From the human T2T-CHM13v2.0 reference genome, Homo sapiens, in NCBI RefSeq assembly GCF_009914755.1, contig NC_060935.1: 64,000 nucleotides of DNA. The stretch is one strand, 5' to 3'. Position numbers and translations under genes: made by a program. Every line of letters begins with the position of its first letter. The first letter of the stretch is position 1. Below are positions 43,602 to 64,000 of the stretch, piece by piece. Under the pieces are notes generated by a model. The model had not been told where the DNA came from, did no database searches, and was given only the letters and a program-made list of their open reading frames with translations.

Positions 43602-43620
43602 ATCCTGTGCGCAGGTGGCA
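43602..43620 (+). CDS. PTPRJ: PTPRJ exon 2, a 19-nt microexon (ILCAGG + 1 nt; end of signal peptide)
   Basis: Polypyrimidine tract and ...tttcag|ATCCTGTGCGCAGGTGGCA|gtgagt. The translation matches the known PTPRJ N-terminus (...RLGQ-ILCAGGT-PSPIPD) and joins exon 3 in frame (A|CC = Thr). Confidence 0.93.
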
Positions 43621-45000: not shown

Positions 45001-45228
45001 TCATGGAAGCATATATGGGCAGATCTTGCTGAAATCTTCTAATAAAGCAAATCTCAATTAATAATGGTAATTAGAGCCTGTGCAAACAATGGGAAGAGTA
45101 CTGCCGTTGGTTTTTCTTCCTGTTAATTAGTTTAATAAATAAACTGGTGGGTACCTTGTACAGGCTTGAATCACTGCTGCAGAAGAACACTTCTATTCAA
45201 ACATCTACCGTAGGTAGTAGAATTGCGG

Positions 45229-46310
45229 GAAACAGAAATCATGAGCTATTTTAACTGAAAGGATTTACCCTGGGAAGTGAGAGTTTACAGAGTCATTGGA
45301 AGGGCCGCTGTATTAGTTTGCCAGGGCTGCTGTAATAAGATCAAGGTCTTGGGGGTTAGGACTTCAACATATGAATTTGGGGGTGGCGGAGCACAAGTCA
45401 GCTCATAACAGCTGGGGAGGAGGCTTTAGGCCTGGCCCTGAGAAATTACTCCCAGACTAAGGCTGCAGAACTGACCCCCTAGAGAGTCACCACCTTGGTC
45501 ATAGACAGCAAGCAGAGAGGGAGGAATCAGGAAGTCCCTGCTGTAGTTGCTGGATCCAGCGGTGAATGTTCTGAGCTGTGATCCTGGGATCAGGAAGCTG
45601 CAGCCACTGCCACAGTGTTGGTTCTAGAGCCAGGCAGCATGAGATCCAGTCATCGCATCCACACTACAGCTATAAGAAGGAGGAAGGGCAGAAGGTTGTG
45701 CTCCACCCTTTAAGGACACTTGCTAGAAGTCAGACAGAACGTCTGGTCACACTCTGTTTGACAGAAGTTAGTCACATGCAACATCTAGCTGCATGGGAGG
45801 CTGGGAAATGTGGTCTTTGTTCCCAACAGCTATGCATATACAGGGCCAAAAATCTCCAGGAGTATGATGAAGGGAAAATGGGGGAATGGAGTTTGGGGGT
45901 CAAGAGTGGTCTCTGCTGCACCTCCCTGAACAGAGACTCTAGGAGACTAGTAATGAATTCAAGATAAAGCAGCCAGTGTGGCCAAGGTTCTCCTTCAGTG
46001 CCTGAGCTCTTGGCCATAGGAGCTCACGCCTCCTCTCCTTTCCTGTGAATGACTGTGTGCAGTGTAAGCATGGAGCTTCTGCACTCTCGTGGCCAGGTAC
46101 TCTCCATGTGGCCAGAAATGGCAGTTTCTGAGGGGCTCATGTTGTAGGTGATGATACAAAGAAGAGAAAGAGAGGGATCAGTTTTTCCAAGTGTGCATTT
46201 CATTTCAGTGTAAATATTTTGTGAGGTGGGGCATCCCTGTCTCCTGGAGAAATATATTTTTAATCTAATTGTTTACTTTCTTTGCATAGCCCCTAGTCCA
46301 ATTCCTGACC
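45229..46310 (+). repeat. Intragenic duplication, copy A (end of intron 2 plus exon 3 start)
   Basis: Colinear with 62645-64000. By-eye counts: 11 mismatches in 120 nt at 45961-46080, and 2 in the last ~70 nt before the acceptor. Confidence 0.95.
45309..45410 (-). mobile_element. Internally deleted paralogue of the MLT1 LTR at 62726-63108
   Basis: Same two termini in the same flanking context, but only 102 bp long. Confidence 0.8.
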
Positions 46311-46526
46311 CTTCAGTAGCAACTGTTGCCACAGGGGAAAATGGCATAACGCAGATCAGCAGTACAGCAGAATCCTTTCATAAACAGAATGGAACTGGAA
46401 CACCTCAGGTGGAAACAAACACCAGTGAGGATGGTGAAAGCTCTGGAGCCAACGATAGTTTAAGAACACCTGAACAAGGATCTAATGGGACTGATGGGGC
46501 ATCTCAAAAAACTCCCAGTAGCACTG
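46290..46526 (+). CDS. PTPRJ: PTPRJ exon 3 (237 nt), Ser/Thr-rich N-terminal ectodomain segment
   Basis: tttgcatag|CCCCTAGTCCA...AGCACTG|gtaagc; encodes PSPIPDPSVATVATGENG...ASQKTPSST (within ORF 46226..46618). Confidence 0.96.
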
Positions 46527-46943
46527 GTAAGCATAGGCTTTTCTGCCAGTCATGTTTCTTAAAGGAAATCGGTAGAATTTATAAATGTCATGTTTTCCAA
46601 ATACTGTTCTTCTTTTAATTACCTAAGAAAATCTTTTTAAAAATTTTTATAAAGATAGTAATGCATATTCATTATATAAAACATAGACAAGAAAAGAATA
46701 ACAAGTAAATCATTAACTGGAGATAACCATTGATCACTTGATATACGAGTTTTATAATTTTAAGATATATGCATGCCTGTGTGCATATGTATATACATAT
46801 ATATGTTTTATTTTGTTTTACAAATATCAAGGTCATCCTTTACATGTAGCTTCTCACCAATATATTACAAATATTCTTCCCTGTTAGTATATACATTTCT
46901 ACAGGACAGTTTTAATACCTGCCTGGCATTCTATTTTCTAAAT

Positions 46944-47134
46944 CAGGGTTGGCAGATAATAATGGTCCTTGGGCCAAATATAGATCACTTTCTGTTTTTG
47001 TAAGTAAAGTTTTATTGAGTCTGCCTATGGCTGCTTTCATGCTAGAATTGAGTAGTGGCAATGGAGAATTTGTGGCTTGTAAAGCCTGAAATATTTATTC
47101 TGTGGCCCTTACAGAAAAACATTGCTGATACCTG
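46944..47134. mobile_element. MER58A-like MITE
   Basis: cagggttggcag ... aaagttttattg ... gcctgaaatatttattctgtggcccttacagaaaaacattgctgatacctg. Confidence 0.7.
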
Positions 47135-47154
47135 GGTTAGATAATTGATTCTAA

Positions 47155-47500
47155 AACTGTGGTTCAGAGATCTCTAGGGGTCTCCTAGATTCTTTCAAGG
47201 TATTTCTGGGTATTGTTTTCATAATACTACTAACATGTTATTTGGCTTCTTTACTCTCATTTTATCATGAGTGTACAGTGGAGTCTTGCAGATTCTATAT
47301 GATTTGGGATGACACTGTCACTCTTACAGCTAATGGAATGTATGCTTTCATATTGTTTAAAAAACTTTATCTTTTTTATTTCTAATACAGTATGGTAAAT
47401 ATTAATCAATATAACCCATATAAACAAAAATTCTCCGGGAGCCTTAATAATTTTTAAGAAGTTAAAAGGGCCCTGAGACCACAGTGTTTAAGAATTACTT
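47155..47500. mobile_element. Charlie1-derived non-autonomous element
   Basis: Ends resemble those of the element at 17356-19284 (taataatttttaag ... ccctgagacc ... tttaagaattact). Confidence 0.6.
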
Positions 47501-47699
47501 GTCTAAAAGCATTGTAAATTATTTAACTGCTCCCCTGTTGTTGGGAAGGTAGATTATTTATTTATAATTTTTCATAAAAAACATTGTGATACAATAGTTT
47601 TGTTAGTTCTAGAAGTATTGATAAAATCACATACACAGTTAAAATAAGTCATTGAATTATTTCTAGGGTAATATGAGAAACTTTTAGAAATTCCTAAGG

Positions 47700-48022
<323 letters not shown>

Positions 48023-48059
48023 TTAATTATTGTTACAAAAATTTGGGCTTAGAGGTTGG

Positions 48060-52280
<4,221 letters not shown>

Positions 52281-52395
52281 AATATTGTTAACTGTGCTTT
52301 CTTTTCTGAACTTAAGAACTTGCTTTTCCAAAACCTTCCCAGAATCCCTGTATGAATCAACAAAATTTAGTTCTTAACACATTTCTCCTTCTTTA

Positions 52396-52812
<417 letters not shown>

Positions 52813-52865
52813 TTATAAAGAGGAAATTCAAGCTTGGAGGGGCCTTCTGGCATGACGTTTATTGA

Positions 52866-53238
<373 letters not shown>

Positions 53239-53869
53239 TCCTGCAGTTTTTTTATTGATTGGATGAATGTTTGTATATCCCATGAGCCAGATGAGGCACA
53301 CTGTCCATGCACATAGCAAGATGGTAACACTTACACCATCTTTACTCTTTTGGGATTAGTCCCAAGCTCCTTGAGAATGACTGCCGTATCACCTGGGTTT
53401 TACTCTTCGGTTTCTGGTTGTTACTCCTCAGTCTTCAGCTCAATTAGGATGCATCCATTTGGTAGTTTTACAGTTAGTAACCCTGATGGCTTCCACTGGT
53501 TTACGATCTTGTACATCTAAGATGATGAAACTAAGGTTCAGAGAGGTGAGATGACTTTGAGTAAAATTGCATGGTGAGCAACTAGCAGAATTGGACCCTG
53601 AAACCAGATTTCTAATGTCCAAATCTTGTCCCTTGTTTATCATATCATGGTGGTTCAATAATAATTCTTCGTGTTTAGTGTGGTGTACTAGAGCTATCAA
53701 CAGAGAAACTTGAGACTGAGAGGTTTGAAGGGACTAATTCTAGGTCACACAGCTAATGGATGGAGCAGGTCTTTAATCCCAGATCTGGGTTCCAAGACCA
53801 GTCCTTTTCTCTTTACGCTGCTCTGCCCCTGCTATCTTTATTTCAGAAAACCACTGAGCTTCCTTCTAG

Positions 53870-54240
<371 letters not shown>

Positions 54241-54537
54241 GGTCTCTTTTTGTATCAGCTTCTATACAGACTTAACCCCATTTTTAAGTCACAGCCAGCA
54301 TGGTCAACTTCTGTCAGTTTTGCTTCTGTTCCAAAGGCTTCTGTTTTACTAACATACACACATACATGTATGCATATGGATTTAAATAAATTCTGGTGCA
54401 GGGAAGTCTAGGAGGCAAAGAGAGATAAAACTCTGTGATTGGAAAGTCACTTCTGGAAACTAGACATATAGAGCAGACCTCACTCTTACATTTCTTTTTG
54501 AAGTGCAATAATTTTTTTTTTTTTTTTAACAATATAG

Positions 54538-54801
54538 GGCCCAGTCCTGTGTTTGACATTAAAGCTGTTTCCATCAGTCCAACCAATGTGATCTTAACTT
54601 GGAAAAGTAATGACACAGCTGCTTCTGAGTACAAGTATGTAGTAAAGCATAAGATGGAAAATGAGAAGACAATTACTGTTGTGCATCAACCATGGTGTAA
54701 CATCACAGGCTTACGTCCAGCGACTTCATATGTATTCTCCATCACTCCAGGAATAGGCAATGAGACTTGGGGAGATCCCAGAGTCATAAAAGTCATCACA
54801 G
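54538..54801 (+). CDS. PTPRJ: PTPRJ exon 4 (264 nt), fibronectin type III domain
   Basis: poly-T...aatatag|GGCCCAGT...ATCACAG|gtaaga; GPSPVFDIKAV...LTW...GLRPATSY...WGDPRVIKVIT has the FNIII Trp and Tyr-corner motifs. Confidence 0.97.
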
Positions 54802-57147
54802 GTAAGATGACTGGCTCCCAGGGATGATGACAAACCATTTCTTATTATGGTGTATTCTAGGGCCTTGTCCGTTCAAGTTGCCTGTTGGAAAGAGAATGGT
54901 TTTCATAAACTAGAAGAGGAGAAAAGGTGCTATGTTGTTTCAAGCCTGGGATTTCTGGTGGCCACATCATTCAGTATTAAGGCCCTATGTGTTTTGGGAA
55001 GTTCTAACTACTTCTGTTTGGTTTTTAAAATCTTTTGTTATTGTTGGTTAACACCTACCTTTCTGTTAAGACTCAGGAGTAGAGACTTCCTTAAAAACGC
55101 GTGTCTTCATGGTAATTACCAGCCTTTTAAGCTCCCAGGAAATTGATGCTGTGTTTATATTCCCAGGAGTTTCTGTTGGGCAGGAAAGTTTGGTGTATTT
55201 TATAGGGGAGTGTGTGTTTCAAATGAAATAAGAGTTTGATGATATTTAAATTTTAATTCAGATTTGACAGTTTAGATTTTGATTTATCTTAGATGTCAAT
55301 ACCGAAGCCATCTATTATAGCTGCAAACTTAGCTTTTTTTTTAAGCTGAAAAGAACCAAACATTTTAAAAAACAGGTGGAGAAACTTTTTTAAGGTGAGG
55401 AGAACCAAAAATTGAAGAAAGAGGTCCTCTGTTAGTTTTCTGATCTAGGGGGCTGGGGAGTGTGATCTCAGGGGCTGGAGTCGGCCATGGGCGCCTGAGC
55501 TCTTGGAGCCCACGGCTGGAGGTGAACGAGGTCCAGCGTGGAGCAGCAAATATGAAACCAGTGGCTTCCGACATTTTAAGTCAGGAAACTATTTCTTTAA
55601 ACAAAACCTTGCCCAGGAGCCCAAAAAGTAAAAATAAAAAACTGGAGAGAAAAGAGCCAAAGAAATGGGAGTCACGGGCACCCTGACAAAACTCCTGGAG
55701 CTCCTCAGAGCACTATTTTAGGGGGGAAAACCTGCCATAAAGGTTTGCTCTGTTACATTGTGAAAGAGAGGGAAAGGAGAGCACAGAGAGATGACAGAAG
55801 AGAAGAGAATGAGAGAAAAGAGCATAGAACTTGGAAATGGTCATGAGGACAAGGTGACCCCGAGGGGGTGGCTGTGGGAAAGGGGATGCGGAGGTGCAGG
55901 AAGCACCGGTAGAGGGGCTGAGTGTCCTTATCTAGCTTAAAGCCCTGAGCACAGGGCTGCATGGGAGCAGGTCCATCAGCTGCTGCGTATTGAGCACGGC
56001 ACATGTGCCTCTCTGTCCTTAATGTTATTTTGTCCTCACAGTAACCCTGGGGGCTGCAGCAGAAGACACTGTAATGTGGAGAAGTTAAGTTTCTTCCGGT
56101 GTCTCAGAGTTACTGAGTATCAAGTGGTGGGGCTGGAACCCGGAGTCTAACTCTAGACCACTGTGGTGCAGTGATGTTCATAACAGCTATCCACAGTCAC
56201 CGAGCTGGGAATTTATTGGTTCTGCATTACTTAATAAAACAAAAAGACGCATGACTGACCTGATTTAGAACTCTTTGCATGAGAGACATGTGCTGTGAAG
56301 AATCATCTTACCGTTTCGGAGCTGGACGGTGCCTTAGAATCATCTAGGCCGATGTCTTTACCTTCAGGCCCCTGCAGCCCTCAGGAGGGGTTTTGCTCTA
56401 TCTGCAGCACTACCTGTGCTTTTCTGTACATGAAGCTGCAGCCCTGGGTTCTCCTGTCCCCACTGCTACCAGGAGTGTGTGTTCTTGAGCAAGCCCCCCT
56501 GCCTCTCTGGGTCTTCGTGTTCTTATTGGAAAAGTGAGGGGAGTGCATGTCATTTTGGGTGAAGTGGTTTGACTTATGTCACCATCAACCAAATAACGCG
56601 ATGGGAGGAAGGTCCAGGATATAGTGGAGATGGAACGTCTTCTGAAAAATCCCCTTGGTGCTGGGATATTGAATGTGCTGCTTACTTGAAATGTCTTGGT
56701 AATTTAAAATGATATTATTTGCATTATCTTGAATTGAGACCTTTAGATTAGTAAACAGTCACTTTATTTGAGGCTTTGTTCCTGATATCTAAAACACATA
56801 CAATTAAATGCTACCATTTAAAAGGGACAGTTTAGAAGAGTGTCCAGTCACTATTGGGGTTAATCTTGGAGAACAGTGTGGATCCTAAACAATTTCAGTT
56901 TTAAGGTTTTTTTCTTCTCTTCCGTGTTATTATTTTCTCCCCCAGCCCTGCTGTGAAATGATGGAAATGCATTGGGCTCTGATAGAAAGGAAGTATTTTT
57001 AGTGAGTCACATTGGGACATCAGTGACCTCAGTCATTCTTTCTTTTTTTCTTTTAAAACGCGCTCCCAGCACTGAACCCCAGTCATTCTTAATGAAGGTG
57101 ACTGCATATATCTTGTTCCATTAATGCATGTTGTATTTTTAAAATAG

Positions 57148-57405
57148 AACCGATCCCAGTTTCTGATCTCCGTGTTGCCCTCACGGGTGTGAGGAAGGCT
57201 GCTCTCTCCTGGAGCAATGGCAATGGCACTGCCTCCTGCCGGGTTCTTCTTGAAAGCATTGGAAGCCATGAGGAGTTGACTCAAGACTCAAGACTTCAGG
57301 TCAATATCTCGGGCCTGAAGCCAGGGGTTCAATACAACATCAACCCGTATCTTCTACAATCAAATAAGACAAAGGGAGACCCCTTGGGCACAGAAGGTGG
57401 CTTGG
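57148..57405 (+). CDS. PTPRJ: PTPRJ exon 5 (258 nt), fibronectin type III domain
   Basis: aaaatag|AACCGATCCCA...GGCTTGG|gtgagt; EPIPVSDLRV...LSW...GLKPGVQY...; codon CAA at 57357-57359 is Gln276. Confidence 0.96.
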
Positions 57406-58502
57406 GTGAGTTACAAAGGGTACCTTCCGTCTCCCTTACTGGTTCTTACTTTCAGTAACTAAATGTTCTAAAAAATAAATTGCTCTTCCATGTGTATGGA
57501 GATTTAGAATTTATAAAGGGCTTTTCCTCCACATTTTAGTTTGATCCCCCACCTGCATGAGGAAGGAAGGAAACGTGTTCTGATTTTACAGGGGAACACA
57601 TTGGGGCTGAGAACAGCAATAGGAATTGAAACTTTTTAGAGTCTGGCACCCAGGAAAGTTAGAGGCCCCTTTAGCTTTCTATCTAACAGCTGTGTCAACC
57701 CAAGTTGGGCCTTCAGAGGAACTTATCACGTCTGCTGGTTGATGTTGGCGTTGTCATTTGCAGGTTTCATAGCATTTGCAGAGGATCCCCAGGATAACTC
57801 CATGAGGAGGACAGGCACTTAATCTGCATTTTATACTTAAGAAAACAGAGCTACAGAGTGGGTGTCAGGATCCTTGCTTGCGAGTGACAGAAACCAGACT
57901 TTGGATAGCTCAGACAGAAGGAACAATTTATTGGCTCATGTGGATTTTCCTGCTAGCGGGAGGCCTTAGAGAAAGAGATGAGGCAATTCTCATCCCTCCC
58001 TCTTGCTTCTTTCTGTTCATCAGCTTCATTCTCAGAGCAGCTCCCTCTGCACACTTAAGGAGCCCAGCTGCTCCTGTTTCACACCCTGCAGCTGCCTCAC
58101 CAGCCAGCTGCCCCACCAACCAGGGTCTGGTCCAGGGAAACGTGTCTTGAGTGGGGTCTGATTAGCAAAGTCTGCTTCACAGAGCTGTCCCTGGAAATCC
58201 ATGCTGGGACAGGAGAAGATAACAACCCAAAGAAGGGAGAATGACCTGAAATAAGCAGAGTTTGAAAGAGAAGCACCAGATATCTGTGGTGCTACTGGAA
58301 TAACAGTACAAATGGAGATGGAGCTATCAGGCCTTTTTATGGGGCTGCCTCTCTCTCTGGAGGAGGAAGGGAGCAGATATTGATGGAGCACCAACTGTGG
58401 CCACTGTCTGATGGCCATCTGATGGGGTTGGGGCTCCGAAGGAAAATGGGGGATGTGTCCCTCTTGTGGTTGATGTCTTTTTGTCTCCTGTGCTTGAAAC
58501 AG

Positions 58503-58721
58503 ATGCCAGCAATACAGAGAGAAGCCGGGCAGGGAGCCCCACCGCCCCTGTGCATGATGAGTCCCTCGTGGGACCTGTGGACCCATCCTCCGGCCAGCAG
58601 TCCCGAGACACGGAAGTCCTGCTTGTCGGGTTAGAGCCTGGCACCCGATACAATGCCACCGTTTATTCCCAAGCAGCGAATGGCACAGAAGGACAGCCCC
58701 AGGCCATAGAGTTCAGGACAA
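58503..58721 (+). CDS. PTPRJ: PTPRJ exon 6 (219 nt), linker plus C-terminal half of an FNIII fold
   Basis: gaaacag|ATGCCAGC...AGGACAA|gtaggt; DASNTERS...GLEPGTRYNATV...IEFRT; codon CGA at 58604-58606 is Arg326. Confidence 0.96.
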
Positions 58722-59948
58722 GTAGGTTGAACTTTGTAAAATGGTGGCAGCCAGAGTTTCCTAGCACAATGTTCTGTCTCCTGTGATTCTGATTCTGAGT
58801 GATTTCTTGCATAACAGCTAGTTTTGATGTCAGAGGGAGCTTCCTGGAGGAGATTTTGGACAGAGCAGATCTGCTCAGTTTCTTCTTAACTCCATGGGCA
58901 GTGCACATCTCTCATTAAGTGAAATCAAATACATGGAGCAGCCCCTGTGTGCGGGCACCAGGCACTGCCTCACGCCATCTTTCACAGCTTTGCGTGGTGG
59001 CTGATGAGACAAACTGGCATCATACTTTCCTCTTAAAAACAAATAATCATTGCTTGTTTTTCCTTTGCTTTGAGTTAAGAAAGTTATGAAAGTGAGTTTC
59101 ATTTTTTCACCCGCCTTGTAATTCATACCGATCTTTCTGTTGAAATGCTTGTTGACATGCACATTGCTGCTTCCTCGCTATAATTTATCAGCACTTTCAC
59201 TCTGTAAGTTCACCAATATTTGGAGGCTTTGGTGAAAAGAGCGGGAGGTGAACACATTTGGGAATACTTAGAGGTAGTTACTGGCCAGGCTGTGTTACTT
59301 GTACAGGGCTAGAAGTTTTGGCAAGACATTGGTGAGAAGCCATTCTGTAAGGAATGACAGTTTTTCCTGGTATCCATGTTGAAGGAGGGTCCATTTGTGT
59401 CCTTCCTTCCCTTTGTACTTGTTTTGCTAATGTGGGAGTGGGTGGGGAGGATGCGGCCGTAGGACAGGCTGCCTGACCTCATGGGGCCTGCAGTGACCTG
59501 GCAGGAGTGGCAGGTGGGAGGCTCTCGGGTGAGGAGGGCTTGGATTCCAGAGGGTGGGTTAGTTGGAGGAGGAGGAAGGGGCTCCTATGTGGGTGCGGTT
59601 GGCAGTGGTGGGGTGTCCTGCACATGGTAAGCTTGCGTGAGAGAGTGAAAGGGGCTGAAATCTGGTCTGTGTGCCCTGCGTCAAGCCATGCACCCAGGGC
59701 TGGGTCCAGCCAGGGGAAGGTCCCTTTGACTGATTTGCTAAAAGGACTTGTAGATTTGTGTGGGCCTGGGGTCCCTGCTTTTTAAAGCAGTTTGAGCAAA
59801 AGCAAAGTAGTAGTGATTACATCTCAGGCTCTTGGTGGTGTGAATTCACACACATCCTGCTTTGGGTTGAACTGTCTTCATGCTTGGTAAATAATCATTA
59901 TAGTAGCCTTTCCCTCTCTATAAGGGGCGAGTGTGTGTGTATAGATAA

Positions 59949-60309
59949 GTCTTAGTCAGTTTGGGCTGCTGTAACAAATGGCCATGCACTAGATGGCGTA
60001 AACAATGAACATTTATTTCTCAGGGTTCTGGAGGCTGGAAGTCTGAGACTGGGGTGCAGCATGGCTGGGCTCCGGGTGAAACACCCTCTTCCTCTTCCAG
60101 GTTGCAGACTCCCTGGGTCTTCACGTGGTTGAAGGGGTGAGGGCGTGGTTTCTCTCCAGCCTTTTTGATAAGGGCACTAATACCATTCAGGAGGGAGGTA
60201 ATTCATGATCTAATTACCTCCCAAAAGCCCCGCCTCCTAAAAGCATCACATCAGGGGTTACAATTTCAACATAGGAATTTTATGGGGACAGAAACATTCA
60301 GTCTGTTGC

Positions 60310-60311
<2 letters not shown>
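59949..60311 (-). mobile_element. MLT1A-like MaLR solo LTR
   Basis: gtcttagtcagtttgggctgctgtaacaaa ... ttctggaggctggaagtctgag ... ataagggcactaat ... aacattcagtctgttgca. Confidence 0.78.

Positions 60312-60340
<29 letters not shown>
60312..60340. repeat. (CA)n microsatellite
   Basis: Seen directly. Confidence 0.95.
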
Positions 60341-60343
<3 letters not shown>

Positions 60344-61300
60344 TAAACACACATTTCCACCCACCCCAGAGCACCCTGCACTTTTCAAGTGACTAGTTAG
60401 GTGGGGCAGGGTTAAGGAAACCATCAGAGGACATTGTTGAGGCACCCAAGACACGACAGAAAGCCACCTCTAGGGCTGAAGGGCTAGAGGAGGACAGGGT
60501 GTTTCTGGAGCCCAGTGAGAGCTGGGGCAGTGGTGGACACAGCTGTGTCAGGACAGGAGGCCCAGAGCAGGAGGTGATGGAGGAAGGCACTGACTCCTTT
60601 CTCCTGTGGCCCTTCAGGGGCCTGCCCATTGGCTCATAGTGGAACCCGGTCACAGCCCATGTGGCAAGACCCCCCATGATGCCTTGCACAAGGTCAGCCT
60701 CCTGGGCCCAGAGCAGGTGAGGGAAGGGCAGTGGATATGTCGGGAGGGTGGAGTGGGCAGGTGGTGAATAACTGGCACTCGGGTTATCTTTTCTTGAGGT
60801 TAGGATTGCTCTCCAGTTTTATAGGTGAGGAAGCTGAGCTCAAGTGGTTTTCCTGTGGCCCACCTGGGTGTCATAGCAGAGTGAGCCCTGGAACCCAGGC
60901 CTGCCTCGTCCTGACTTCTGTGATCTCGGGCGATCACATAGATCGCAGTGTTCGCTCTTGCATCATGTGTGTTTGACAACTTTTCTGGGTGCCCCTGGCC
61001 CTAGGGTAAGACATGCATAGAGTCCAAGTCATCATTTAGGTCAAATCTCTAAAGTCAACTTACAAAAAGGAACAAAGAATAACCCTGCAGGTGCCATTGG
61101 CCAGGTTGTTTCTTCACCGCCCAATGATGCCTGACTTTGGCTGGGACCGTCATGCTTTCCTAGCCACGGTTGATGGTGCAGAGGAGGAAGGAACACTCCC
61201 CCAGGAGAGTTTGCTGGGCTTGACAGCATGCCCTGATGACCTCTCCCTCCCTCTGCCTTGGCCGTTCTGGTTATTTTGAACTCCTCTTGTGTTCTCACAG

Positions 61301-61564
61301 ATGCTATTCAGGTTTTTGACGTCACCGCTGTGAACATCAGTGCCACAAGCCTGACCCTGATCTGGAAAGTCAGCGATAACGAGTCGTCATCTAACTATAC
61401 CTACAAGATACATGTGGCGGGGGAGACAGATTCTTCCAATCTCAACGTCAGTGAGCCTCGCGCTGTCATCCCCGGACTCCGCTCCAGCACCTTCTACAAC
61501 ATCACAGTGTGTCCTGTCCTAGGTGACATCGAGGGCACGCCGGGCTTCCTCCAAGTGCACACCC
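61301..61564 (+). CDS. PTPRJ: PTPRJ exon 7 (264 nt), fibronectin type III domain
   Basis: ctcacag|ATGCTATT...CACACCC|gtgagt; NAIQVFDVTAV...LIW...GLRSSTFY...FLQVHT. Confidence 0.97.
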
Positions 61565-62725
61565 GTGAGTTCATGCCTGGCTCTCACCACCCTTTCCTGC
61601 TGTCCTGCTCCGTGCCAGGCCCAGACACAGGATGCATGATGTAGTAATGGTGACTGTTGGCTGACCACACGCCAAGCTTCGTGTGACATGCTTTCCTTGC
61701 ACTGGCACATTGTATGCTCACAACAGCCCTGTGATGTGGTTGGAAGTAGCCTTATTTTATAGATAGGAAGCCAAGGCTGAGAGAGGTGCTAGACAGGTAT
61801 CACAGCTGGAAAGTGGCAGAGGTGAGATTAAGCCTCTGGTATTTCTCACCTGGAGCCTGCGCTTGTAACTCTCTTTCCAGTGTGGAGGAGACCTAGAGTG
61901 AATTGATACAGGGAGACAAAAATGACCTGGTATTCATATCCCCTTGTGTCTTGGGTGCTGACATTATAACGAATCACTGGCACAGCTGTATCTCATCTTT
62001 GTTTGTTTAAATGTCCCTTAAAAATAAGATTTTATGCAGCAAATAAAAAGCTTTAGGTTTCAAAGAAGGTCCGATAATGTAAAATAAAACAGTAATGGTG
62101 CACTAGTAGTACAGTGGTATAATATTGATTATATACTATTAAACAATAGTAGTGACACCAGCACTGCATTTTGCACTGTGCCATGAGATTTATAGACACT
62201 GTAGTGGCCTCCGAGGTAGGTATTGGGGTCCCCTTTTACAGATGAGGAAATGACACCCTGATGGCTGAACAGTTTGCCCAAAGCCACAGAGCTAGTGAGT
62301 AGCAGAGCAGGACTTGAACTCAGGGGTGTGTGGCTCTGGACCCAGGCTTATCCCACAAGAATGTCCATTCCTTCGCAGGAAGCACACCTTAGCATTCTTA
62401 TAGATGTATTTTGGACTGGATCTTTGGGAAAATGAAATATGCTTGCATTTCTTTACCTTTTACTCTTTTACTATTTATTAGTTAGGATTAGGTTCAGCCA
62501 CGAATAACACCACCAAAAACAACAACAACAAAACCCAAGTATCCATGGCTTAAACAAGACAGGGGTTTATTTCTCTCTCCTGTAACAGAAGCCCAGTGCT
62601 AGGCAGGATGGGGATGATAGAGGTTATCCAAGGCTCAGTTGTATGAAACAGAAACTGTGAGCTATTTTAACCAAAAGGGATTTATCCTGGGAATTGAGGT
62701 TTTGCAGAATCATTGGAAGAGCTGG

Positions 62726-63108
62726 TGTATTAGTTTGCTAGGGCTACCAGAACAAGTACCAAAGGCTGTGTGGCTTGAACAGAAATAGACTTTCTCATAG
62801 TTCTGGAGGCTGAAGGTCAAAGATTAAGGCAACGGCAGGTGTGGTTTCTTCTGAGGCCTCCCTCTTGGCTTATAGATGACTGTCTTCTCCCTCACATGGT
62901 TGTCCTTAGTCTGCGTGTGCCTATGCCCTCATCTCCCTTTATAAGGACACCAGTCTTGCTGGATTAGGGCCTACCTTCATGACCTCACATTAACTTAATT
63001 ACCTCTTTGAAGACCCTGTCTCCAAAGACAGCCACATTCTGAGGTCTTGGGGGTTAGGACATAAACATACACATTTGGGGGTGAGGGAGCACAAGTCAGC
63101 TCATAACA
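62726..63108 (-). mobile_element. MLT1 (MLT1B/C-like) MaLR solo LTR, full length
   Basis: tgtattagtttgctagggct ... ttctggaggctg ... ataaggacaccagtc ... cagctcataaca. Confidence 0.8.
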
Positions 63109-63979
63109 GTTGAGGAGCAGGCTTTAGGCCTCGCCCCAAGAAATGACTCCTGGACTAAGTCTGCAGAACTGACCCCCTGGAGAGTCACCACCTTGGTCAC
63201 AGACAGCAGAGGGAGGAATCAGGAAGTCTCTGCTGTAGTTGCGGGATCCAGGGGTCTATGTTCTGAGCTGTGATCCTGGGATCAGGAAGCTGCAGCCACC
63301 GCTGAGGTTTTGGTTCTAGAGCCAGGCAGCGTGAGCTCCAGTCATTGCATCCACACTACAGGTATAAGAAGGAGGAAGGGCAGAAGGTTGTGCCCCACCC
63401 TTAAAGGACACTTCCTAGAAGTCACCCAGTACCTCTGCTCATGCTTCGTTGAGCAAAACTTAGTCACATTGCAACATCTAGCTCCATGGGAGCTGGGAAA
63501 TGTGGTCTTTGTTTCCAACAGGTATGCACACACAGGGCTAAAAATCTGGGTGGGTATGATGAAGGGAAAATGGGGGAATGGATTTTGGGGGTCAAGACTG
63601 GTCTCTCTCTGCTGTCCCTCCCTGAACAGAGGCTCTGGGAGGCTAGTAATGCATTCGAGATAAAGCAGCCAGTGTGGCCAAGGTTCTCCTCCAGAGCCTG
63701 AGCCCTTGACCACAGGAGCTCACGCCTCCTCTCATTTCCTGTGAATGATTGTGTGCAATGTAAGCACAGAGCTTCTGCACTCTCATGATCAAGTGCTCTC
63801 TCCATGGCCAGAAACAGCAGTTTCTGAGGGGCTCATGTTGTAGGTGATGATACAAAGAAGACAGAGAGAGGGATCAGGTGTCCTAAGTGTACATTTCATC
63901 TCAGTATTTTCTGAGGTGGGGCATCCCTGTCTCCTGGAGAAGTATATTTTTAATCTAGTTGTTTACTTTCTTTGCATAG

Positions 63980-64000
63980 CCCCTGTTCCAGTTTCTGACT
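63980..64000 (+). CDS. PTPRJ: PTPRJ exon 8, first 21 nt (truncated by window end)
   Basis: tttgcatag|CCCCTGTTCCAGTTTCTGACT gives (P)PVPVSD in frame with exon 7. Confidence 0.9.

What the first reader, a model, noticed from the sequence alone, without database searches (positions are those of the whole stretch)
45229..46310. PTPRJ exon 3 and its upstream intron are a recent intragenic copy of intron 7/exon 8
Seen in the sequence: 45229-46310 aligns colinearly with 62645-64000, about 17.5 kb downstream. By-eye counts give ~89% at 45411-45540, ~91% at 45961-46080, and only 2 mismatches in the last ~70 nt before the acceptors, which both read gtttactttctttgcatag|CCCCT. The match crosses repeat boundaries and includes unique-looking sequence and the splice site, so independent transposon insertions cannot explain it. 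Inference: ~10-15% intronic divergence points to a duplication (or conversion) within primate evolution that created a new first ectodomain exon. From memory, and unverified here, mouse Ptprj runs from the signal peptide straight into the first FNIII domain, which would fit exon 3 being a lineage-specific gain.
Basis: partly seen in the sequence, partly recalled or inferred. Interest (0 to 1): 0.85.

Follow-up and report, generated by a model that had tools for sequence, protein, structure and literature searches.

The report
PTPRJ exon 3: decayed exon-8 copy
Exon 3 of the human phosphatase gene PTPRJ is a heavily remodelled internal copy of the exon 8 cassette, and its surrounding introns look much younger than the exon itself, which suggests an older exon whose flanks were later made alike rather than a recent exon birth.

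Summary
About 2.4 kb around PTPRJ exon 3 (window 45227-47638) is colinear with about 3.1 kb around exon 8 (62641 to 65768, past the window end). This is the only long match in the human genome. Exon 3 is homologous to exon 8 alone (BLASTP E=1e-10). It no longer matches the Pfam fn3 model and is acidic, Ser/Thr-rich and poor in hydrophobic residues.

The block is a mosaic:
- Upstream intron: 12% mismatch.
- First 165 nt of the downstream intron: 13%.
- Distal downstream flank: about 21%.
- Exon core (46295-46475): 40%.

Silent sites in the core are as diverged as replacement sites (dS 0.45, dN 0.54). This does not fit one recent duplication followed by adaptive protein change. It fits better an older duplicate whose flanks were later homogenised by intragenic gene conversion that stopped at the exon core, as described for L/M opsin genes.

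Simulated neutral decay of exon 8 never gives exon 3's composition, so the exon was shaped by selection.

Whether non-primates have exon 3 could not be tested. One figure legend (dog protein aligned over 97% of the human length) hints that they do. This is a new member of a known kind, of moderate interest.

The parts
45227..46289 (+). Copy A upstream flank (3' end of PTPRJ intron 2), colinear with 62641-63979
   Evidence: 89.0% identity over 933 aligned columns for 45344-46289 (K2P 0.120). The segment 45227-46294 has 127 mismatches in 1055 columns.
45311..45411 (+). Remnant of an old interspersed repeat in copy A (both ends kept, about 297 nt of the interior missing). The same element is complete in copy B.
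   Evidence: alignment; window 45344-45411 has many genomic copies at 81-89% identity. The name (MaLR-type LTR) is recalled, not tested.
46290..46526 (+). PTPRJ exon 3 (237 nt, phase 1-1): decayed copy of the exon 8 FN3 cassette, encoding an acidic, Ser/Thr-rich segment that precedes FN3-1
   Evidence: 34% identity, E=1e-10 to exon 8. (no Pfam family at E<=10). (10% hydrophobic residues, 32% S+T, 4 N-x-S/T sequons). (present in PDB construct 7U08).
46295..46475 (+). Exon core: island of high divergence inside the similar flanks
   Evidence: 72 mismatches in 181 columns (p=0.398), with change points at 46295 and 46476; still specifically homologous to the exon 8 core (z=7.5; 0 of 500 shuffles reach the score); all 8 silent differences lie here.
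46527..46762 (+). Proximal downstream flank (start of intron 3), similar to the start of intron 8
   Evidence: 46527-46691 vs 64238-64403 is 87.4% identical over 159 columns (K2P 0.139). alignment.
46757..46856 (+). TG/TA-rich simple sequence, present at the same relative place in copy B (about 64476-64578)
   Evidence: weak 'mir-297' hits, far below the gathering score, at corresponding places in both copies..
46857..47638 (+). Distal downstream flank of copy A, colinear with 64985-65768. It holds two discrete old repeats (about 47021-47130 and 47213-47494).
   Evidence: 78.3% identity over 618 columns (K2P 0.260). The repeat edges are sharp at query positions 687 and 968.
62641..63979 (+). 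Copy B upstream flank (3' end of intron 7), including the complete ~385-nt old interspersed repeat at about 62726-63110
   Evidence: discrete edges, 4168 first-look candidates genome-wide, and the 39 other scored copies are 72-76% identical.
63980..64000 (+). First 21 nt of PTPRJ exon 8 (an FN3 cassette, 258 nt in all). Copy B runs on past the window to about 65768 (chr11:48301768).
   Evidence: The fn3 hit is 24.0 bits (E=4.6e-5), just under Pfam's 25-bit cut-off.

Best explanation
Exon 3 of PTPRJ arose by intragenic duplication of the exon 8 FN3 cassette, together with about 1.3 kb of upstream and 1.1-1.5 kb of downstream intron. The copy landed in intron 2, about 17.4 kb upstream of its source. 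It then lost the FN3 fold and was driven by selection towards a hydrophilic, acidic, Ser/Thr- and sequon-rich segment that now caps the ectodomain in front of FN3-1; disorder and glycosylation are inferred. The duplication is older than the similar introns suggest: at least as old as the distal flank (K about 0.25) and, on the exon's silent sites, probably older than primates. The high similarity of the adjoining introns (K about 0.12-0.14) is secondary. Later non-allelic gene conversion between the two copies homogenised the flanks and ran a few nucleotides into each end of the exon. The exon core was spared, either because conversion there would destroy one of two different functions or because its divergence blocks the tract.

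Shown: the homology, the mosaic of divergence, the silent-site excess, and the non-neutral composition. Inferred: gene conversion as the cause, the ages, and the function.
For: - Homology and uniqueness.
- Mosaic: mismatch fractions are 0.120 (45227-46294, n=1055), 0.398 (46295-46475, n=181) and 0.210 (46476-47640, n=1014). Proximal downstream intron 20 of 159 against distal 134 of 618, P=0.010. Upstream against distal, P=2e-8.
- Silent sites: dS 0.45 (0.25-0.76) against dN 0.54. Codon positions differ at 32, 29 and 26 of 78. 4-fold sites differ at 7 of 21, P=0.0056 against the intron rate. All 8 silent differences in identical-residue codons fall among the 17 core codons; none falls among the 12 at the exon ends. 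Core pS is 0.50, against 0.61 for the ancient pair e4/e9.
- Repeats shared by both copies show one co-duplicated block.
- Selection on exon 3: 0 of 20,000 simulated neutral descendants of exon 8, at each of four divergence levels, reach 10% or fewer hydrophobic residues. At most 0.07% reach 32% S+T.
- Precedents for similar introns with divergent exons through conversion plus selection: abstracts of PMC3213168 and PMC3728101.
- Hint that the exon is older than primates: the legend of S6 Fig in PMC6126841 gives dog against human as 73% identity over 97% of the length, while exon 3 is 5.9% of the protein.
Against: - No non-primate sequence was seen. The dog hint is a legend, not an alignment.
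- The silent-site tests rest on 17-29 codons in a low-complexity region where some identical residues may be chance alignments. Against the distal-flank rate the excess is weak (4-fold sites P=0.16; third positions P=0.014).
- Divergence within the exon is patchy. In the last 49 nt, the first 28 nt have 3 mismatches and the last 21 nt have 9 (hand count on the alignment). This also fits local rapid change on a young background.
- Conversion between copies that were already 13% or more diverged, 17 kb apart, is inefficient by general knowledge, and two tracts (or one tract with the core restored) are needed.
- Directional selection on exon 3 is shown, so part of the exon's excess divergence is adaptive and not a sign of age.
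- If the mouse really lacks exon 3 (recalled only), a secondary loss has to be assumed.
Confidence: 0.55

Rival explanations
1. One reading: one duplication within primate (or early euarchontan) evolution created exon 3 as a new first ectodomain exon. The exon then changed several times faster than its introns, under strong selection, while it was turned from a folded FN3 domain into a disordered cap.
For: - Flank divergence of K 0.12-0.14 next to the exon.
- Composition shift that neutral decay cannot give, so strong directional selection did act.
- dN is at least as high as dS.
- Patchy divergence in the 3' end of the exon, with no silent change in 9 identical-residue codons there.
- Recalled, unverified: mouse Ptprj lacks this segment.
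Against: - Third positions (26 of 78, P=3e-6 against p=0.13) and 4-fold sites (7 of 21, P=0.006) are far more diverged than the adjoining introns. Selection on the protein does not predict this.
- Silent differences are as frequent in unchanged codons of the core (8 of 17) as third-position differences overall.
- The distal flank is twice as diverged as the upstream flank.
- The dog legend hint.
Confidence: 0.27
2. One old duplication and no conversion: the differences in divergence reflect local mutation-rate differences, or purifying selection on both copies of the near-exon intron sequence (for example splicing or enhancer elements).
For: - The last 70 nt before both acceptors match at 67 of 70, as expected for constrained splice regions.
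- The distal flank is AT-rich (GC about 35%) while the upstream flank has GC about 49%, so the mutational regimes may differ.
Against: - The low-divergence stretch is about 1.1 kb long and evenly about 89% identical in 100-column blocks, far beyond usual splice-site constraint.
- The contrast persists at non-CpG sites (0.109 against 0.250).
- No annotated enhancer or silencer lies in either copy.
- It leaves the 40% mismatch of the exon core unexplained.
Confidence: 0.1
3. The shared block is not a duplication: independent insertions of the same interspersed repeats happen to lie next to two FN3 exons.
For: Both flanks do contain old interspersed repeats with many genomic copies.
Against: - The A/B match runs colinearly through at least four separate repeats, a microsatellite, unique spacers, both splice sites and the exon.
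- A and B are much closer to each other in the upstream repeat than copy B is to other genomic copies: about 85-87% between A and B, against 72-76% for the 39 best other copies.
- Genome-wide there is no other long match.
Confidence: 0.01

Closest known systems
L/M (red/green) opsin paralogues: introns homogenised by gene conversion, central exons kept apart by selection (PMC3213168, abstract read)
   Same: Divergence between the paralogous copies is significantly higher in exons than in introns. Conversion tracts lie mostly in introns. Selection against homogenising the functionally distinct exons is invoked.
   Different: In the opsins two whole genes lie in tandem and the case rests on many species and individuals. 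Here two exons of one gene, 17 kb apart, are compared in a single genome, and the diverged exon has lost its fold rather than shifted a few tuning sites.
[quoted passage not shown]
   Same: A mosaic of high- and low-divergence regions between duplicates, read as conversion plus selection for a new function in the island.
   Different: Different organism and scale, and population data were available there. Here the mosaic is inferred from one pair of sequences.
Internal exon (domain-cassette) duplication in FN3 or Ig arrays, as in the R3 receptor phosphatases (general knowledge; FN3 counts of 8-18 in the review PMC10815196, passages)
   Same: A symmetric phase 1-1 exon encoding one FN3 unit was duplicated within the gene. 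The PTPRJ FN3 exons fall into two alternating sequence types.
   Different: The copy is not adjacent to its source (exons 4-7 lie between them). It no longer encodes an FN3 domain.
Mucin-like N-terminal region of CD45 in front of its FN3 domains (review PMC10815196, passage)
   Same: A Ser/Thr-rich, presumably glycosylated, unstructured cap at the tip of a large phosphatase ectodomain. Ectodomain size matters for exclusion from close contacts (CD148 truncation experiment in bioRxiv 10.1101/2023.08.23.554524, passage).
   Different: The two are not homologous. The CD45 region is alternatively spliced from several exons. Glycosylation and disorder of the exon 3 segment were not tested here.

Membership tests
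Intragenic exon (cassette) duplication | Two exons of one gene are homologous at protein and DNA level, more closely than to any other exon | tested here: met
   BLASTP of e3 against e8 gives E=1e-10. In the 9-exon matrix, e8 is e3's only hit below E=0.01. The core DNA alignment has z=7.5 against 2.1 or less for five other exons. Genome-wide, the e3 peptide finds only itself and e8 (2 matches from 7 candidates).
Intragenic exon (cassette) duplication | Flanking intron sequence is co-duplicated and colinear | tested here: met
   colinear from 45227/62641 to 47638/65768. The only large differences are an Alu in B and an internal deletion of a shared repeat in A.
Intragenic exon (cassette) duplication | Same intron phase, with length a multiple of 3 | tested here: met
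   The exons are 237 and 258 nt, both phase 1-1.
Fibronectin type III domain (Pfam PF00041), asked of the exon 3 peptide | Match to the fn3 profile | tested here: not met
   no family at E<=10 for e3. fn3 is found for e4 (37.1 bits), e7 (32.8), e8 (24.0), e6 (22.6) and e5 (19.1); the last three are under the 25-bit cut-off.
Fibronectin type III domain (Pfam PF00041), asked of the exon 3 peptide | Hydrophobic core residues typical of the fold | tested here: not met
   W, F, Y, I, L, V, M and C together make 8 of 78 residues (10%), against 30-36% in e4, e5 and e7-e11; e3 has no W, Y, C or M.
Concerted evolution by non-allelic gene conversion with a divergent exon island | Significant mosaic of divergence with sharp boundaries | tested here: met
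   change points at 46295 and 46476 (log-likelihood gains 26.8 and 13.6, threshold 11.6). Fisher tests.
Concerted evolution by non-allelic gene conversion with a divergent exon island | Silent-site divergence of the exon exceeds intron divergence | tested here: met
   with small samples. The excess is significant against the near flanks (P=0.006 and 3e-6) but weak against the distal flank (P=0.16 and 0.014).
Concerted evolution by non-allelic gene conversion with a divergent exon island | Tree conflict across species: introns group paralogues within a lineage, exons group orthologues | not testable with these tools
   No non-human vertebrate DNA is reachable. The protein searches reached only chimpanzee fragments.
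Lineage-specific (primate) new exon | Absent from outgroup species | tested here: inconclusive
   Searches found no non-primate N-terminus. The legend (dog aligned over 97% of the human length) hints at presence. Mouse absence is recalled only.
Lineage-specific (primate) new exon | All neutral sites of the copy are of primate-age divergence | tested here: not met
   Distal flank K2P 0.26 and exon dS 0.45, against near flanks at 0.12-0.14.
Alternatively spliced cassette exon | Transcripts both with and without the exon, frame kept | tested here: inconclusive
   All 4 of 4 human RefSeq transcripts include exon 3. One chimpanzee partial model (P0001) joins exon 2 to exon 4 in frame, with junction codon AGG = R. 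No expression data.

The most novel reading that the evidence does not exclude
Exon 3 was born in the primate or euarchontan stem from a folded FN3 cassette. Within a short time it was rebuilt by strong directional selection into a disordered, glycan-bearing cap, at several times the neutral rate and at all codon positions. That would be a dated, traceable conversion of a folded domain into an intrinsically disordered region, lengthening the ectodomain of a phosphatase whose size governs its exclusion from cell contacts.
Probability: 0.25. Interest if true: 0.6.

Novelty: new member of a known kind. Interest (0 to 1): 0.38.

Why it matters
It explains where the unannotated N-terminal segment of human CD148/PTPRJ comes from. 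Structural reviews treat these residues only as "the sequence preceding FN3-1". They are a former FN3 domain, copied from the fifth one (UniProt numbering, recalled).

It also gives a clean single-gene example in which intron similarity misdates an exon. Anyone dating exon births from flanking-intron identity would place this one in primates, while the exon's own silent sites say it is older.

If the segment differs between primates and rodents, mouse models and anti-ectodomain antibodies for CD148 would not carry over directly. Ectodomain size has been tied to CD148 function in T-cell triggering.

Tried and rejected
**Cross-species presence of exon 3 (the decisive question) was not obtained.**
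- The search for homologous proteins with the exon 3 peptide found nothing in its size range.
- The frame around exon 4 found one chimpanzee fragment.
- That fragment as query found a second chimpanzee fragment, plus horse and otter proteins that match exon 1 only.
- All 3 searches are used. Each left out candidates known from samples alone (2, 6 and 135).

**Literature: 10 of 10 searches used.**
- 'PTPRJ' with 'exon duplication', with 'fibronectin type III' and 'exon 3', with 'gene conversion' and 'intron', and with 'primate-specific' gave nothing on this duplication. I found no description of it in the held library.
- PMC7725344 (passages) treats only the signal peptide.
- PMC3398958 and PMC9578707 (passages) were irrelevant.
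- Closed supplements may settle the matter: S1-S2 Figs of PMC7725344 and S6 Fig of PMC6126841.

**Other points.**
- Rejected: a closer donor for the exon core elsewhere in the genome (none).
- Rejected: an ancient two-exon block duplication pairing e3-e4 with e8-e9 as the sole explanation. e4/e9 silent sites are near saturation, but the flanks are far too similar.
- Rejected: RNA families in either copy. Nothing reached a gathering score. The SRP-like hit is an Alu and the 'mir-297' hits are a microsatellite.
- Rejected: annotated regulatory elements as a cause of flank conservation (none in either copy).
- The 'masked_repeat' table misses the old repeats, so it cannot stand in for RepeatMasker.
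- Repeat names (MaLR-type LTR, hAT-type element) and the clock calibrations are recalled and were not tested.
Full report
**1. The observation**

45344-46309 matches 63042-63999 at 87.3% over 974 columns, and 45229-45328 matches 62645-62745 at 84.2% over 101.
- 45411-45540: 111 of 130 columns.
- 45961-46080: 109 of 120.
- Last 70 nt before the acceptors: 67 of 70, so 3 mismatches rather than 2.
- Both acceptors are identical over gtttactttctttgcatag|CCCCT.

I added 10 kb beyond the window (L001). The match then resumes after the exon: 46476-46691 with 64187-64403, and 46857-47494 with 64985-65634. Hand inspection puts the outer edges near 45227/62641 and 47638/65768. Copy A is therefore about 2.4 kb and copy B about 3.1 kb. 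The size difference comes from an Alu present only in B, and from about 297 nt of an old repeat that is complete in B but internally deleted in A. No other pair of PTPRJ exons between window 40001 and 74000 matches at the DNA level; every other hit in that self-comparison is Alu-like.

**2. Not a repeat family**

I searched the whole reference with the upstream flank. The only long matches were the query itself and the exon 8 region. The remaining 38 of 41 listed matches were pieces of 130 nt or less from two short old repeats (40 of 350 candidates scored). The downstream flank behaved the same way, with short pieces from two discrete elements (40 of 418 scored).

The element at the left end of copy B (about 62726-63110) has sharp edges, 4168 first-look candidates and best copies at 72-76% identity. 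A and B match each other there at about 85-87%. A TG/TA microsatellite also sits at the same relative place in both copies. So the block is one co-duplicated unit that already carried several old interspersed repeats. The names of these repeats (a MaLR-type LTR, a hAT-type element) are my recollection only, because no repeat library was available. The 'masked_repeat' table does not list them, so it cannot be used as RepeatMasker.

**3. The exons**

Exon 3 (46290-46526, 237 nt) and exon 8 (63980-64237, 258 nt) are both phase 1-1. Their peptides align over the full length at 34% identity (29 of 85; E=1e-10). Among nine ectodomain exons, exon 8 is exon 3's only relative below E=0.01. Genome-wide the exon 3 peptide finds only itself and exon 8.

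Pfam's fn3 model hits e4, e5, e6, e7 and e8, although e5, e6 and e8 fall under the 25-bit cut-off. It finds nothing in e3 even at E<=10. Exon 3's peptide has 10% hydrophobic residues against 30-36% in the folded units. It also has 32% Ser+Thr, four N-x-S/T sequons, net charge -7 and GRAVY -0.99.

The segment is present in the construct of PDB entry 7U08 at chain residues 4-81, directly before exon 4.

**4. The mosaic**

This is the main new result: the exon is far more diverged than its introns. Careful global alignments give:

| Region | Identity | K2P |
|---|---|---|
| Upstream intron | 89.0% of 933 | 0.120 |
| First 165 nt of downstream intron | 87.4% of 159 | 0.139 |
| Distal downstream flank | 78.3% of 618 | 0.260 |
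| Exon | 64.6% of 237 | 0.494 |

The contrast holds at non-CpG sites. A likelihood change-point scan over 2250 ungapped columns places the boundaries at 46295 and 46476. The mismatch fractions are 0.120, 0.398 and 0.210. Fisher tests:
- Core against upstream: P=2e-17.
- Core against distal flank: P=3e-6.
- Upstream against distal flank: P=2e-8.
- Proximal against distal downstream: P=0.010.

The core is still truly homologous to exon 8's core. Its alignment score has z=7.5 (0 of 500 shuffles reach it), against z of 2.1 or less for five other FN3 exon cores.

**5. Silent sites**

If the copy were recent and the exon had diverged by selection on the protein, silent sites should look like the introns. 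They do not.
- Nei-Gojobori dS is 0.45 (bootstrap 0.25-0.76) and dN is 0.54 (0.41-0.71).
- The three codon positions differ at 32, 29 and 26 of 78 codons.
- Third positions exceed the intron rate (P=3e-6). 4-fold sites differ at 7 of 21 (P=0.0056).
- Of 29 codons with identical residues, 8 carry a silent difference. All 8 lie among the 17 in the core; none lies among the 12 at the two exon ends.
- Core pS is 0.50, approaching the ancient pair e4/e9 (0.61). Other FN3 exon pairs are at 0.63-0.89.

Caveats:
- The samples are small.
- In a low-complexity region some identical residues may be chance alignments.
- Against the distal-flank rate the excess is weak (P=0.16 for 4-fold sites, P=0.014 for third positions).
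- The 3' end of the exon is patchy: by hand count on the alignment, 3 mismatches in 28 nt are followed by 9 in 21 nt.

**6. Selection on exon 3**

I simulated neutral point substitution from exon 8 at mismatch levels of 0.13, 0.25, 0.37 and 0.50, with 20,000 runs at each level.
- The hydrophobic fraction never fell to exon 3's 10% (0 of 20,000 at every level).
- Ser+Thr reached 32% in at most 0.07% of runs.
- The frame stayed free of stops in 36% of runs at the lowest level, falling to 5% at the highest.

Exon 3 is therefore not a drifting pseudo-exon. It was pushed towards a hydrophilic, glycosylatable composition while staying open. All four human RefSeq transcripts include it, and the chimpanzee copy differs at 1 of 78 residues.

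**7. Most likely history**

The simplest account that fits all strata has three steps:
- A duplication of the exon 8 cassette into intron 2, at least as old as the distal flank (K about 0.25).
- Remodelling of the copy under selection.
- Later non-allelic gene conversion that homogenised about 1.1 kb upstream and about 0.2 kb downstream (K about 0.12-0.14), entering a few nucleotides into each end of the exon but sparing its core.

On recalled calibrations of the human-lineage neutral branch (roughly 0.03 to the Old World monkey split, 0.055-0.06 to the New World monkey split, about 0.1 to the strepsirrhine split, 0.15-0.17 to the eutherian root):
- The near flanks date to about the anthropoid stem.
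- The distal flank dates to around the origin of primates or somewhat earlier.
- The exon's silent sites point earlier still, with wide error.

The pattern has precedents. Significantly higher exon than intron divergence, with conversion tracts in the introns, is described for L/M opsins (PMC3213168, abstract). 'Islands of divergence' under conversion are described for GOT1 paralogues (PMC3728101, abstract).

**8. Other species**

This is the decisive test, and I could not run it.
- The protein word search reaches only proteins of 0.55 to 1.75 times the query length, and single exons are short.
- Three searches gave two chimpanzee partial models, plus horse and otter exon-1 read-throughs.
- The only outside hint is a legend. 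[quoted passage not shown] Exon 3 encodes 79 of 1337 residues (5.9%). By my understanding of BLAST defaults (recalled), a 79-residue gap would split the alignment and hold coverage to about 94%. So the dog protein probably has an alignable exon 3 segment.
- That would make the exon older than primates, and the recalled absence in mouse a loss. I treat this as suggestive only.

**9. Rivals**

Selection clearly acted, and the 3' end of the exon shows replacement changes without silent ones.
- Rate heterogeneity or constraint on the flanks without conversion (about 0.1) does not explain an evenly 89%-identical kilobase or the exon core.
- Independent repeat insertions are excluded by the colinearity.

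**10. Function (inferred)**

The exon adds about 79 acidic, Ser/Thr-rich residues with four sequons to the tip of the CD148 ectodomain. This is comparable in kind, though not in ancestry, to the mucin-like tip of CD45 (PMC10815196, passage). Shortening the CD148 ectodomain abolished its effect in a T-cell triggering assay (bioRxiv 10.1101/2023.08.23.554524, passage). An added glycosylated cap could plausibly change size, charge or ligand access. Nothing here tests that.

**11. Verdict**

- This is a new member of known kinds (exon-cassette duplication; intron homogenisation with a divergent exon island).
- I found no description of it in the held library.
- Interest is moderate.

Noticed in passing
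P0001 and P0002 (chimpanzee NCBI partial models); window exons 43602-43620, 46290-46526, 54538-54801, 57148-57405: Chimpanzee 'PTPRJ isoform 8, partial' joins exon 2 directly to exon 4, skipping exon 3 in frame; the junction codon A|GG = R was checked on the window. 'Isoform 7, partial' joins exon 3 to exon 5, skipping exon 4. The phase 1-1 ectodomain exons may therefore act as optional cassettes. All four human RefSeq transcripts keep both exons.
   Followed up: partly
L001:1032-2241 (window-equivalent 65032-66241); window 46895-46910; L001:2848-2930: The terminal exon of the short soluble isoform (NM_001098503) starts inside copy B's downstream flank. Its acceptor (…tttctacag|G) is conserved at the matching place in copy A, where an in-frame stop follows after three codons. 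It is conserved again in a third ~80-nt copy 1.9 kb further down intron 8 (88% identity to B). Copy A may therefore carry a latent terminal exon after exon 3.
   Followed up: partly
window exons 46290-64000 and L001 exons 9-11: The FN3 exons alternate between two sequence types: e3, e5 and e8 begin P-x-P-V/I-S/P-D, while e4, e7 and e9 begin x-x-V-F-D-I/V. This suggests the array grew by ancient duplication of two-exon units. e4/e9 is the best-scoring pair (51.6 bits), with silent sites near saturation.
   Followed up: partly
window 61196-61556: RefSeq annotates a 'silencer' that covers PTPRJ exon 7 (61301-61564) almost exactly. No such element lies in either duplicated copy.
   Followed up: no
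P0003 (horse) and P0004 (otter): These 'uncharacterized protein' models contain the PTPRJ signal peptide preceded by about 115 Arg/Ala/Gly-rich residues, then read on into non-PTPRJ sequence. They look like exon 1 read-through models. The upstream extension matches the extended signal peptide discussed in PMC7725344.
   Followed up: no
/data/chr11.tsv.gz 'masked_repeat' rows; window 45311-45411, 47021-47494, 62726-63110: The masked-repeat table lists Alu-like repeats but none of the old interspersed repeats found here by genome search. A stretch without a masked row is therefore not necessarily unique sequence.
   Followed up: yes
window 46757-46823; L003:2476-2578: Weak Rfam hits to mir-297 and mir-3149 (24-36 bits against gathering scores of 90-100) fall on a TG/TA microsatellite in both copies. 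They are almost certainly composition artefacts and not microRNA genes.
   Followed up: yes
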